Of a DNA stretch of 64,000 bases, positions 22,359 through 56,397 are shown piece by piece. The stretch lies in NCBI RefSeq assembly GCF_009914755.1, contig NC_060925.1, one strand, 5' to 3'. The position numbers and the translations under genes were made by a program. Source of the stretch: the human T2T-CHM13v2.0 reference genome, Homo sapiens. Under the pieces are notes generated by a model that was not told where the DNA came from, searched no databases, and worked only from the letters and a program-made list of their open reading frames with translations. Position 1 is the stretch's first letter; each line of letters begins with the position of its first letter.

Positions 22359-23779
22359 ATTCCTACTGTTTTCTTGGAGTGGAAGTACCCCTTCTTGGAG
22401 GGGGTAGGAGGTTGTGGGAAGGAGATGGGAGGAGGAGGGAGCTGTGGTCTTGCTTCCTGCTGCTGGCAAGTGCAGGCCTGGGTGTCTGAGGCAGGGGCAG
22501 AAGAGAGTACAGCAAGGAAGCCTCTTTTTATCTCCTTACAATGGGAGTGGTGGCTCTCTTAATGAGAGAAAGAATGGGCCACAAATTGTTTTTCTCCTGC
22601 TTTAGGAGCCAGATCTCCAGAATAAAATTTCTCATTAAAATATCAGTATGCCAAAAGTTAACCAGCAAAATAAAAAACCTGTTGACAGACTGGAAGGCCT
22701 GGGACACTGAGACAGCCTGTTGCAGAATTTGGAGCCTCAGGAGGGACCAAAGTGAAGGGTCCAAAGGGTCCGAAGGGAATCCACTCAAGAGGACAGTAAG
22801 GTCATTTATAAAGCATGGCTGTGACAGCAAGGCTCACCCCACTTCATCAATGTTATGGGAGGCCTTGTTGCTCCTCCCAAGGAGATAAACATACAAAGGT
22901 GAGCTGGCAGGCCACTGCACTGCTCAAGGCACGCTAGGAAGGCTGGCTCTCCAACCTGCTGCCGCAGTGAGGACCCGGGGCCTCAGATGGTCTCTCCACC
23001 AGTAAAGCTGCTTGGCACTTGACAGTGTAAAATCAGGAGGTTCCTCCCTGAGGGAGGTGGGCAGGCAGCCAGGAGAATCCCAGAGAATGCAGAGTGCCAC
23101 AACTGTCAGGCCTCGGAACCCATGATGTAATGCCTCTCTGGGGGCCAAGGAAAACAAGCCCACTGTTGTCACTGCCCTCCCAGCAACCAGGCGCTGCCCT
23201 CCCCATGGCACGGCTGTTCTGCGTAATTATGATCCCACTTTCTCTCCTTGGGAGGAGGAAATATGAAAAACCTTTGTTGTCACATAAAAACCAACCCAAG
23301 ATATGAGAACTGTCTTTTAAAATACATCTTGCTGTAGAGAGATTTCCATAGCAACTTCAGAAGTGTGTGTATACAACTAGAGATAAGTCCAGGCTGATGA
23401 AAGCTACCTGGAATGTGAACAGGCTCTGGGCATCAGCAGCTGTGGATTTTTCTAGAACCTGTCATGCTGCTGTGTGACCCTGGGCAAGTCACTTACCCTC
23501 TCTGATGCCTAAGGTGATAGAATCATCATTAGATCAGGCTGAGAGAGATCAAGGCATCCTGTCCGCACTACCCTGGTCTGACGCTTCAGTTCCCCAAAGC
23601 TTCCCCTGCTTCCAGCTTCTGTCCAGTCTCTGGCTGAATAAGTCCTGGCTGAAGGCCTCTGCCAATCTTACTTATTATTTGACATTGGGAAACAGAATGA
23701 TCATTTAAGCTTGATTCTAAAAATAGTGCTTAGTCTTGGTAAGAGAAGTGCTTTGCCTGTTTAGGCAACAATATATTAA

Positions 23780-24148
23780 CAGGGCAGATTCCTGGGAAAC
23801 AGTCTGTGAGATGCTGAGATTTGGGGGTGGGAGTTTTACTGGGGCTGCTCTCAGGATCAATACCTCTGGGGTATAGAGGAAGTTCCCGGATGCAGTGGTA
23901 ACAGAGGCCTTAGGCGATCCCTCAGGGACCCTGGAGCCTGGCTGAGTGTCCTACTAGAAGCAAACGGGGTTAGGCCTTTGAACTCCCACACTGACAAATC
24001 CCCTCGGGAGCTTGCTGCCCCCAGGCAAGGGGTTTGACCTGAAGAGAGGGACTCAGTCACAACCCCAGCTAAGGGAAGGAGAGCCCGGGTCCTGGAGGGG
24101 GCATCTGTCCCCTTCATGTTGACATGAAGCAACATGTCATCCACTACA
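23780..24148 (-). mobile_element. LTR16-like ERVL solo LTR
   Basis: Minus-strand start TGTAGTGGATG (catccactaca, 24138-24148), and the motif ttcctgggaaacagtctgtgagatgctgagattt...ggagttttactgggg at the other end. Confidence 0.65.
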
Positions 24149-24563
24149 TGGATGTGTTTGAATTGGACATGAAGGCAGCCCAGGAGGCTAGTATGATAAC
24201 ATGGTCAAGACCATAGGCAGCAGAGGCAGAGAAAACAGCAAGACTGGGATTCACATGTTAGTCTCAGTGGCCTTAAGACTCTGAGATTGGGAAAGTTGCC
24301 AGTAGAGTAGAGGCCAAGATTTCCTCGTATGTGCAGGATTCAGCCTGGGTTGGTGACACACACATGGAAGTTCAGAGTCAGAAACCAGTTCAGATTTTGG
24401 CTCCACGCTTATTATTAATAGCTCTGTGACCTCGGGCCAGTTACTTTCTATCAGTTTCCTCAACTCTCCCATGAGCCTTCCTGTCCAATTCAAACACATC
24501 CATGTAGTGGATGACATGTTGCTTCACCCAAATGCCCCTCCAGGACCCGGGCTCTCCTTCCCT
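24072..24563. repeat. Inverted repeat: arms 24072-24176 and 24475-24563, 298-bp spacer
   Basis: Perfect 45-bp block (24125-24169 vs 24482-24526) plus perfect 29-bp block (24072-24100 vs 24535-24563). The ORF track shows shared peptides in opposite strands (MSSTTWMCLNW / HIHVVDDMLLH). Confidence 0.95.
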
Positions 24564-26152
24564 CAGGCAAGGTACCTCTCTCATAGATCTATTGTGAGGG
24601 CAAGCTGGGATGACATATGGATTTTACACAGAACTAGCACAGGGGTGCAACAATAACATCCACCATGCTTTAATACACCTCATGTTATACCTAAGTCTTT
24701 GGTCAAATGGCCTTTTCGCAAGAGAAGGGAACTTTCAGAGAATTTCCGATTTGCTCATTGTTCCTCTGTGCCTTGGTCTTAGCGGGGGCTTGTGACCCAT
24801 GTCTGCAGAGAGAGAGAGAGAGACCCAGTGGCCCACCAGGGACCAAACTAACCCAGCCTCAGCTTGGAAGCTATGGAAGGCCATGCAATATCAAATAAGG
24901 TGCATCATCTAAGTACTTTGCAAACTACATTCTTTAAAACAAGCTTATTTTCCAGTGAAAAATAGTCACCCCTTCTTGTGATAGGTTCAATAAACTACGA
25001 AACTCACTTGCAGGTACTTTGTTGCATGTTCAGCCATCTGAAATACATGCCAGAGAGCATCTGAGGAAGTGAAAGACTTCAAATAGCTTAAAGGGCTACG
25101 CAAATTCAATTACTATGTTAATAGACAACATGGCTTCCATCATTTAGAAAGGAAAACAGGAAGAGTATAGGCCCATGTATGGTACAAGTTGGGCTGTTCT
25201 AATTAAAAGAAGGCAGCACAAAATTCCCAAGAGTTATCAAGGGATCTGCACTATTATTATTAACTTTCACCATCATTGGATTGCAGTACATAGTGCATAT
25301 ATACACCTTGTTTGACTCTAACAATAAATCCTGTGTCCAGCTTTCAGATAAGAAAATTGAGGTCCAGAGAGGTGAAGCGACCAGCACAATGTTGCTCAGC
25401 TAACAGTACCATGAAGAGTTTGGGGTCGGAACCCAAGCACATGCTTTCTCCATTGGGGGAAGAGTGTCTGCTTACCGGAGAAGGCTCATGAAGCCCTGTG
25501 CAGTGTGGTCCCACTCAGAGCAGATGTTGCAATGTCAGCTGCTGAGTAATGGCGAGGTTCTGAATAGGTGAGCATGGTGTGTCCCTGGGGCTCTGTGTGT
25601 GAGAAAGGTCTTCCAACACTGCACTGGCTCTCAGAACCTGAACCTGCATCCTGGAGCCTGAACCCTTGTTCTGCGGCAGCAGAATGCCCTCTCAGTTTGA
25701 CCGTGTGTCTGTTGGCCAAAACGCTGAAAGAAATGTCTGCAAACAGAATGTCTCAAAAATAGGTAGGAGATACGATTCAAGGCACCCATGTAGGGTGTGT
25801 TGAGGCTAACTCCTCTCCAGACTTCTTTGTCTTGTTTGATCTCTGCTAGGACACTGGTGCATGGAAGATTTGGCAATATAATCGTAAGTGTTGACAAATT
25901 AAGGGCGACTACCAGGATTTGTGTAAATTACACAGGATGCTTCACCATACCTCCCAACATAATAAAAATAATCTATCTCAAGCAAACATAGCTTCATTCT
26001 ATCTCAAGTGATCCTCATTTTAAAATGAGGAAACTGTAGCCCAGAGAGGTTAAGTAACTTGCCCTAGGTCTCACAGCTACTTAGGAGCAGAATCACGGTT
26101 TCTAACCTAGATTTAGACTCCACATGTCAAATAGATTAAAATGAATATCCAG

Positions 26153-27275: not shown

Positions 27276-27782
<507 letters not shown>

Positions 27783-45242: not shown

Positions 45243-46123
<881 letters not shown>

Positions 46124-46293: not shown

Positions 46294-46626
<333 letters not shown>

Positions 46627-54268: not shown

Positions 54269-54595
<327 letters not shown>

Positions 54596-56127: not shown

Positions 56128-56397
<270 letters not shown>

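What the first reader, a model, noticed from the sequence alone, without database searches (positions are those of the whole stretch)
24072..24563. Near-perfect inverted duplication crossing an LTR boundary and splitting a MIR: intronic RNA hairpin / micro-inversion substrate
Seen: a ~90-bp segment (24475-24563) is the reverse complement of 24072-24176, with perfect 45-bp and 29-bp blocks and a 298-bp spacer. The copied segment includes the LTR16-like terminus plus >20 bp of unique flank, so two independent LTR insertions cannot explain it. It sits in the middle of a MIR (MIR motifs stop at ~24463 and resume at ~24572). Its host repeats are heavily decayed while the arms are almost identical. 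Inference: a recent template-switch insertion, or an older one kept homogeneous by arm-to-arm gene conversion or recurrent inversion. In KCNN3 pre-mRNA it would form a non-Alu ~75-80-bp duplex ~2.8 kb downstream of exon 3 (possible ADAR/Drosha substrate or splicing modulator), and the spacer could be an inversion polymorphism.
Basis: partly seen in the sequence, partly recalled or inferred. Interest (0 to 1): 0.72.

Follow-up and report, generated by a model that had tools for sequence, protein, structure and literature searches.

The report
Local inverted duplication in KCNN3 intron
A 92-base stretch inside an intron of the potassium-channel gene KCNN3 is a back-to-front copy of sequence lying 300 bases upstream, most likely an ordinary copying slip that left a harmless scar able to fold into a long RNA hairpin.

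Summary
The inverted repeat is real. Arm A (24069-24176, 108 nt) and arm B (24475-24566, 92 nt) lie 298 nt apart. They show 89 matches, 3 mismatches and one 16-nt complex indel, with perfect blocks of 45 and 29 nt. Neither arm occurs elsewhere in the genome.

Arm B sits inside a copy of a very abundant dispersed repeat. I take this to be MIR, a name from recall. Its two pieces are collinear and adjacent in other copies. So arm B is the derived, inserted copy, and the spacer keeps its ancestral orientation.

The best reading is a single local templated insertion. It corresponds to type 3-2-1-4 of the published four-point template-switch model, at the long end of the described sizes.

The "LTR16" label could not be verified. 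No relatives were found, and there was no similarity to LTR16B, LTR16B2 or LTR16A1 copies named in print. That test is nearly blind.

Arm divergence gives roughly 17 My (3-48), biased in both directions.

In KCNN3 pre-mRNA the arms would pair over 90 bp, 2.77 kb downstream of exon 3. Editing, splicing effects and inversion polymorphism remain untested. This is an ordinary, known kind of mutation.

The parts
24069..24176 (.). Arm A, 108 nt: the presumed source of the copy, contiguous with its flanks
   Evidence: It occurs only here and, inverted, at arm B in the whole genome.
24101..24124 (.). Segment of arm A that differs from arm B (24 nt against 8 nt, net 16-nt complex indel). It overlaps a perfect 8-bp local hairpin, 24112-24119 / 24122-24129.
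   Evidence: Alignment. The hairpin is read and appears as a small side stem.
24177..24474 (.). Spacer, 298 nt: unidentified sequence followed by the left piece of the SINE-like repeat. It is in ancestral orientation in this assembly.
24345..24474 (+). Left piece of a copy of a highly dispersed repeat (MIR by recall). Aligned parts end at 24462-24468.
   Evidence: nhmmer matches 24345-24456, 24374-24461 and 24415-24467 to other copies in the window. The L003 and L004 copies match 24385-24462 and 24367-24451.
24475..24566 (.). Arm B, 92 nt: inverted copy of arm A, inserted into the SINE-like repeat
   Evidence: It shows no similarity to other copies of the dispersed repeat beyond shuffle level in 4 of 5 comparisons; the fifth only equals the best shuffle.
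24567..24654 (+). Right piece of the same dispersed-repeat copy. It resumes immediately after arm B.
   Evidence: 24567-24599 aligns with L003 (reverse complement) 593-623, 27 of 33 columns identical with one 2-nt gap. Further matches: 24572-24608, 24580-24633, 24581-24599 and 24506-24654. All are weak.
23600..24068 (.). Identity and bounds are unverified.
   Evidence: No relatives in the genome or in the window. No similarity to named LTR16 copies.
27337..27755 (-). KCNN3 exon 3 (context). The repeat lies 2.77 kb downstream of it in intron 3.
   Evidence: RefSeq table given with the finding; exon number confirmed in 5 of 5 transcripts.

Best explanation
A single local mutation event inserted a reverse-complement copy of 24069-24176 into an old SINE-like repeat about 300 bp downstream, with the loss of at most a few bases of that repeat.

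The event is a templated insertion. A growing DNA end left its template inside the repeat (point 1, about 24474). It copied the nearby stretch backwards from 24176 to 24069 (points 2 to 3). It then returned at 24567 (point 4). In the published four-point template-switch model this is type 3-2-1-4, which creates an inverted repeat without inverting the spacer.

The sequence cannot say whether the switch happened at a replication fork or during repair of a break, with a resected end folding back on itself.

The result is most likely a neutral scar. As a by-product, KCNN3 intron 3 RNA can form a 90-bp nearly perfect duplex with a 298-nt loop.

Shown: the copy, its uniqueness, its position inside the repeat, and the orientation of the spacer. 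Inferred: arm A as the source, the mechanism, and neutrality.
For: Arms: 89 matches, 3 mismatches, one 16-nt complex indel.

Uniqueness: only these two places in the 3.1-Gb genome match at E <= 10. The 24-mer 24125-24148 with up to 3 mismatches finds 2 other places, and neither extends beyond 24122-24148.

Position inside the repeat:
- The L003 copy of the dispersed repeat matches the locus in two collinear same-strand pieces: 485-572 to 24385-24462, and 596-632 to 24572-24608.
- 14 of the 23 rows at other places in the window span positions 572-596 in one piece, with no extra ~90 nt.
- 4 of 10 copies tested give matches on both sides of arm B, 1 of 10 on the left only, 5 of 10 none.
- The right piece starts exactly at 24567.

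The model:
- Type 1-4-3-2 / 3-2-1-4 creates an inverted repeat and made up 31% of high-confidence human-chimp events (PMC5453318, passages).
- Hominid gold-standard events have a median copied length of 12 and a maximum of 128 (PMC7954356, passage). So 92-108 nt lies inside the described range.

Duplex: 90 bp, -174.6 kcal/mol. Whole hairpin z = -14.2.
Against: - No sister genome was available, so the state before the event is inferred, not seen.
- I see no microhomology where the copy starts. The bases before 24475 are not complementary to those after 24176 (read). At the other junction there is only a 2-nt repeat.
- The copied length is far above the published median of 12 nt, and the distance (298 nt) is long for a short-range event.
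- The evidence for the right-hand repeat piece is weak: best E = 0.0043 against a 601-nt target, and score 17 against a shuffle maximum of 16.
- If the arm differences arose partly during error-prone copying, or were erased by conversion, the age estimate is off in either direction.
Confidence: 0.8

Rival explanations
1. An old inverted duplication, as old as its decayed hosts, whose arms have been kept alike by arm-to-arm gene conversion or repeated inversion of the spacer.
For: The arms are about 97% alike. The host repeat matches other copies at only 69-89% over short stretches. Short template switches between imperfect inverted repeats are said to homogenise arms and invert spacers (PMC8604942, start of abstract in the listing).
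Against: A young single event explains the same contrast more simply. The arms still differ by a 16-nt complex indel that conversion has not removed. The spacer is in the ancestral orientation. The longest perfect block is 45 nt, which by my recall is well below the homology usually needed for efficient recombination in mammals.
Confidence: 0.08
2. Two independent insertions of the same repeat family (for instance two LTR ends) that happen to lie in opposite orientation.
Against: No third copy exists in the genome at E <= 10. A family young enough to leave two 97%-alike copies should leave more. A named LTR16A1 copy is only 285 of 396 identical to its library consensus (preprint 10.1101/2020.07.24.219139, passage), so two independent old copies would be far less alike than these arms. 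Arm B is only 92 nt long, with no further similarity on either side (extends the match to 24046-24176 / 24475-24578 at most).
Confidence: 0.01
3. One DNA transposon, 24069-24566, with about 100-nt terminal inverted repeats.
For: Two inverted arms about 500 bp apart are the shape of a non-autonomous cut-and-paste element.
Against: There are no other copies in the genome. The left piece of the dispersed repeat lies between the arms and continues directly beyond arm B, so only arm B is an insertion. The 8 bases outside the two arms are identical at 0 of 8 positions (read), so there is no target-site duplication.
Confidence: 0.01
4. An assembly artefact, or a rare insertion private to this haploid genome.
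For: Only one assembly could be read. Inverted duplications can arise as assembly or library artefacts.
Against: The arms differ by 3 substitutions and a complex indel. That is not expected of a fresh artefact or a very recent variant, unless the copying itself was error-prone. The junctions are clean and lie inside an otherwise ordinary intron.
Confidence: 0.03
5. The hairpin has been taken into use: an ADAR-edited or small-RNA-producing intronic duplex that affects KCNN3 splicing. This could be true in addition to the origin given above.
For: The duplex has 90 bp with a 45-bp uninterrupted run. In a genome-wide survey, edited duplexes had longer uninterrupted runs (median 31 against 17 bp) and a higher paired share (PMC11838218, first part of Results).
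Against: The same survey predicts 5.1 million duplexes, most of them unedited. The window alone holds 15 other inverted pairs within 3 kb, up to 254 nt long. There was no Rfam match. Searches for KCNN3 with 'inverted repeat', and with 'A-to-I' and 'intron', returned 1 and 2 papers; none was opened and none of the titles concerns such a hairpin.
Confidence: 0.06

Closest known systems
Short-range template-switch mutations (four-point model, type 3-2-1-4 / 1-4-3-2)
   Same: [quoted passage not shown] This creates an inverted repeat and a hairpin without inverting the spacer (PMC5453318, passages).
   Different: The copied length is 92-108 nt against a median of 12 and a maximum of 128 in the hominid set (PMC7954356). 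The source lies 298 nt away. The ancestral state was not seen here.
Templated insertions of break repair and replication restart (FoSTeS, MMBIR, fold-back priming). Names are cited in PMC5453318; the details are from recall.
   Same: A stretch of local sequence is copied into a junction, often inverted.
   Different: Those models usually rest on microhomology at the switch points. I see none at the inner junction and only 2 nt at the outer one.
Inverted Alu pairs as intronic double-stranded RNA
   Same: They also form an intramolecular duplex in a pre-mRNA and are potential ADAR substrates.
   Different: This duplex is not made of two repeat insertions. It is shorter (90 bp) but far more perfect: 98% against 72-95% for the other 15 pairs in the window.
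LTR16 group of ERVL-type LTRs (ERV3-16 / HERV16; PMC5753468, passage)
   Different: There was no detectable similarity to LTR16B or LTR16B2 at HCP5, or to LTR16A1 in ACE2, and no dispersed relatives. A named LTR16B2 piece finds 6 dispersed relatives.

Membership tests
Template-switch mutation, four-point model type 3-2-1-4 | A fragment is present as a reverse-complement copy of nearby sequence | tested here: met
   89 of 92 aligned positions identical, 298 nt apart
Template-switch mutation, four-point model type 3-2-1-4 | Order of switch points 3-2-1-4: the source lies upstream of the insertion point, and the spacer is not inverted | tested here: met
   The repeat pieces on either side of arm B are collinear and on one strand
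Template-switch mutation, four-point model type 3-2-1-4 | A close relative shows the state before the event | not testable with these tools
   No primate genomes, reads or other human assemblies are on hand
Template-switch mutation, four-point model type 3-2-1-4 | Copied length within the described range | tested here: met
   92-108 nt; published median 12, maximum 128 (PMC7954356)
LTR16 / ERVL solo LTR | Similarity to named members | tested here: inconclusive
   0 of 3 LTR16B/B2 pieces and 0 of 1 LTR16A1 locus match 23400-24800 above chance. The LTR16A1 locus also fails to match the LTR16B pieces, so the test is nearly blind.
LTR16 / ERVL solo LTR | Dispersed relatives in the genome | tested here: inconclusive
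   None found for 23600-24200. The 24-mer search gave 2 chance hits. The positive control with LTR16B2 found 6 dispersed and 4 paralogous copies.
LTR16 / ERVL solo LTR | TG...CA ends flanked by a short target duplication | tested here: inconclusive
   There is one candidate ...CA end at 24147-24148. The other end was not located and no duplication was seen (read).
LTR16 / ERVL solo LTR | Match to the family's library consensus | not testable with these tools
   No repeat library is on hand, and building a consensus is barred
MIR-type SINE (name from recall) | Member of a very abundant dispersed family | tested here: met
   The L003 copy matches 22 places in the 64-kb window at E <= 0.032, this locus included
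MIR-type SINE (name from recall) | The two pieces are adjacent in other copies | tested here: met
   14 of 23 rows at other places span the junction in one piece. In L003, 20-23 nt lie between the two matched parts, against 104-109 nt here.
DNA transposon with terminal inverted repeats | Host sequence continuous across the whole element, target duplication, other copies | tested here: not met
   The repeat's left piece lies inside the arms. The flanks match at 0 of 8 positions. There are no other copies.
ADAR-edited intronic dsRNA | Duplex of at least 25 bp and at least 70% paired (survey criteria) | tested here: met
   90 bp, with one 16-nt bulge and two single mismatches
ADAR-edited intronic dsRNA | Editing sites on both arms | not testable with these tools
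   No RNA reads or editing tables are available. The survey's tables are supplements or an online resource that I could not see.

The most novel reading that the evidence does not exclude
A primate-lineage template switch created, in one step, a 90-bp near-perfect non-Alu duplex in intron 3 of a neuronal and cardiac potassium-channel gene. This duplex is now heavily A-to-I edited or processed, and it influences the use of exon 3 or exon 4.
Probability: 0.05. Interest if true: 0.5.

Novelty: new member of a known kind. Interest (0 to 1): 0.2.

Why it matters
It is a clean and unusually long example of a templated inverted insertion. One mutation event produced a 90-bp RNA hairpin from nothing, and the split repeat gives the direction of the event without an outgroup. 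Such cases show how long stems can arise in one step, which is the theme of PMC8794818 and PMC10710096 (listing and start of abstracts only). For KCNN3 itself nothing suggests an effect.

Tried and rejected
Relatives of the supposed LTR
- Whole-genome DNA searches with 24060-24185 and 23600-24480 found only the locus itself, arm B, and two short matches to the dispersed repeat.
- Sensitive blastn and nhmmer within the 64-kb window found nothing for 23600-24176 except arm B.
- A 24-mer from the supposed LTR end, with up to 3 mismatches, gave 2 other hits that do not extend.

Naming from print
- I located LTR16B and LTR16B2 at HCP5 from Table 1 of PMC6562477. I used the gene table, where HCP5 and HCG26 both sit 146,875 bases lower in this assembly.
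- I located LTR16A1 in ACE2 intron 9 through a primer printed in the preprint 10.1101/2020.07.24.219139.
- None of these matches 23400-24800 above chance.
- The LTR16A1 locus also fails to match the LTR16B pieces. A named LTR16A1 copy is only 72% like its library consensus. So this negative result says little.
- Subfamilies A, A2, B1, C, D and E were not tested.
- There are no inner genes at this locus to consult, and I did not look for any elsewhere.

Other blanks and rejected leads
- The right-hand repeat piece found no relatives in the genome search or in 3 window copies.
- Rfam: one match at 19.2 bits against a gathering score of 60, taken as chance.
- The 9-nt direct match across the outer junction (D2) is rejected as a second switch, because the bases after 24566 align with the L003 repeat copy.
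- Transposon and independent-insertion readings are rejected as given under the rival explanations.

Dating
- Only the arms could be used: 3 of 92 differ, JC distance 0.033. That gives 16.7 My (3.4-47.6) at 1e-9 per site per year, 33 My at 0.5e-9 and 7.6 My at 2.2e-9. The rates are from recall, except 2.2e-9, which the preprint uses.

Supplements were closed. The event lists of PMC5453318 and PMC7954356 and the duplex tables of PMC11838218 may hold this locus.

Full report
What is there

The inverted repeat exists as described. Arm A is 24069-24176 (108 nt) and arm B is 24475-24566 (92 nt), with 298 nt between them. Aligned, they show 89 matches, 3 mismatches (24071, 24105, 24170) and 16 gap columns. 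The gaps come from one complex difference: 24 nt in arm A (24101-24124) stand against 8 nt in arm B.

The perfect blocks are 45 nt (24125-24169) and 29 nt (24072-24100). In 100 shuffles of 23000-25600 the longest exact inverted match averaged 11.9 and never exceeded 20.

Among 16 inverted pairs within 3 kb in the whole window, this is the only one at 98%. The others are 72-95%. The arms of the next best set have 24 blastn hits each in the window, so they are ordinary high-copy SINE pairs.

A local copy, not two repeat insertions

A search of the whole reference with 24060-24185 at E <= 10 returns only arm A and arm B. The tool warns that its counts are lower bounds. The 24-mer 24125-24148 with up to 3 mismatches finds two further places. 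Similarity there does not extend beyond 24122-24148.

Two independent copies of an old family could not be 97% alike. A named LTR16A1 copy is 285 of 396 identical to its library consensus (preprint 10.1101/2020.07.24.219139, passage). A family young enough to leave two such copies would have left others.

Which arm is the copy

A better-kept copy of a dispersed repeat (L003, found) matches 22 places in the 64-kb window at E <= 0.032, this locus included. It matches this locus twice, on the same strand and in order: positions 485-572 to 24385-24462, and 596-632 to 24572-24608. The second match is weak on its own (E 0.94 against the window; 0.0043 against a 601-nt target).

Of the 23 rows at other places, 14 span positions 572-596 in one piece, without about 90 extra bases.

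Of 10 copies tested against 24200-24800, 4 match on both sides of arm B, 1 on the left only, and 5 not at all.

A local alignment places the restart exactly at 24567: 27 of 33 columns identical, with one 2-nt gap. Arm B itself scores at shuffle level against these copies in 4 of 5 comparisons; in the fifth it only equals the best shuffle.

In L003, 20 nt lie between the two aligned parts. Here 12 nt remain besides arm B. So the insertion cost the repeat at most about 8 nt.

Arm B is therefore an insertion into that repeat. Arm A, contiguous with its flanks and the only other copy, is the likely source.

No tool here names repeats.

The transposon reading fails. The repeat's left piece lies between the arms, the genome has no other copies, and the outer flanks are identical at 0 of 8 positions.

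The spacer has the ancestral orientation in this assembly, since the two repeat pieces are on one strand.

How it arose

The pattern is a reverse-complement copy of a nearby upstream stretch that replaces a few bases, with the spacer untouched. This is type 3-2-1-4 (mirror 1-4-3-2) of the four-point template-switch model. That type creates an inverted repeat and made up 31% of high-confidence human-chimp events (PMC5453318, passages).

In the hominid gold-standard set the copied fragment has a median of 12 nt and a maximum of 128 (PMC7954356, passage). This event sits at the long end of a known class.

A break in the repeat, followed by fold-back priming of the resected end on its own strand, would give the same product. 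The sequence does not separate the two.

I see no microhomology at the inner junction and only 2 nt at the outer one.

Arm A's extra segment contains a perfect 8-bp hairpin (24112-24119 / 24122-24129). In addition, 24111-24119 is the reverse complement of 24167-24175. This may be a second small switch in arm A, or a hairpin skipped during copying. Without an outgroup it stays open.

Age

With 3 of 92 aligned positions different (JC 0.033), the arms would have separated:
- 16.7 My ago (95% range 3.4-47.6) at 1e-9 per site per year;
- 33 My ago at 0.5e-9;
- 7.6 My ago at 2.2e-9.

Error-prone copying would make this too old, and conversion would make it too young. It is in any case far younger than its hosts. 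The repeat matches other copies at 69-89% over short stretches.

The old-virus question

I could not show that the sequence around arm A is an LTR.
- No relatives of 23600-24200 turned up in the genome or in the window.
- From print I located named members: LTR16B and LTR16B2 at HCP5 (PMC6562477, Table 1 passages; placed through the gene table), and LTR16A1 in ACE2 intron 9 (primer in the preprint).
- None matches 23400-24800 above chance.
- As a control, a 310-nt LTR16B2 piece finds 4 paralogues in the MHC and 6 dispersed copies, whereas the locus finds none.
- The LTR16A1 locus also fails to match the LTR16B pieces, so copy-against-copy tests are nearly blind at this age.

The LTR16 group belongs with ERV3-16/HERV16 among the ERVL-type (ERV3) elements (PMC5753468, passage). 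One member is dated in print to about 127 My. If the label is right, the remnant is of that order of age.

The label needs a repeat library. There are no inner genes here to consult, and I sought none.

In the transcript

KCNN3 is on the minus strand. The exon at 27337-27755 is exon 3 in 5 of 5 RefSeq transcripts, and arm B ends 2770 nt downstream of it.

The sense-strand arms pair over 90 bp at -174.6 kcal/mol. The whole 516-nt hairpin folds at -260.3 kcal/mol, z = -14.2.

By the criteria of a genome-wide survey (at least 25 bp and 70% paired) it qualifies. Its 45-bp uninterrupted run exceeds the median of edited duplexes, 31 bp (PMC11838218, abstract and first part of Results). The same survey predicts 5.1 million duplexes, most of them unedited.

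Rfam has nothing here. Searches for KCNN3 with 'inverted repeat', and with 'A-to-I' and 'intron', returned 1 and 2 papers; none was opened and none of the titles concerns such a hairpin.

Verdict

The local templated-copy reading is supported. The LTR16 label and the boundary argument are unverified. Homogenisation, inversion polymorphism and function are untested, and the data do not call for them. This is a good specimen of a known mutation class and most likely a neutral scar.

Noticed in passing
window 24101-24129 and 24167-24175: Arm A's extra segment holds a perfect 8-bp hairpin (24112-24119 / 24122-24129, 2-nt loop). In addition, 24111-24119 is the reverse complement of 24167-24175. This may be a second small template switch, or a hairpin skipped when arm B was copied.
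   Followed up: partly
window 24022-24030 and 24564-24572: A 9-nt direct match spans the outer junction of arm B (D2). The bases after 24566 align with another copy of the dispersed repeat, so it is probably chance.
   Followed up: yes
window 45320-45595 / 46319-46561, and 54324-54577 / 56128-56381: Other inverted pairs are up to 95% complementary (91 nt) or up to 254 nt long (81%). The arms of the first set have 24 blastn hits each in the window, so they are ordinary high-copy SINE pairs. They would also form duplexes in the same pre-mRNA.
   Followed up: partly
window 23464-23505: A further short fragment of the same dispersed repeat family lies just upstream of the locus.
   Followed up: no
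window 24807-24823: A short (GA)n run.
   Followed up: no
window 24761-24847: A weak Rfam match to SCARNA23: 19.2 bits against a gathering score of 60, E 0.85. Taken as chance.
   Followed up: no
L012 575-739: The ACE2 intron 9 locus fetched for its LTR16A1 also carries a copy of the same dispersed repeat family. It matches four of the window's copies.
   Followed up: no
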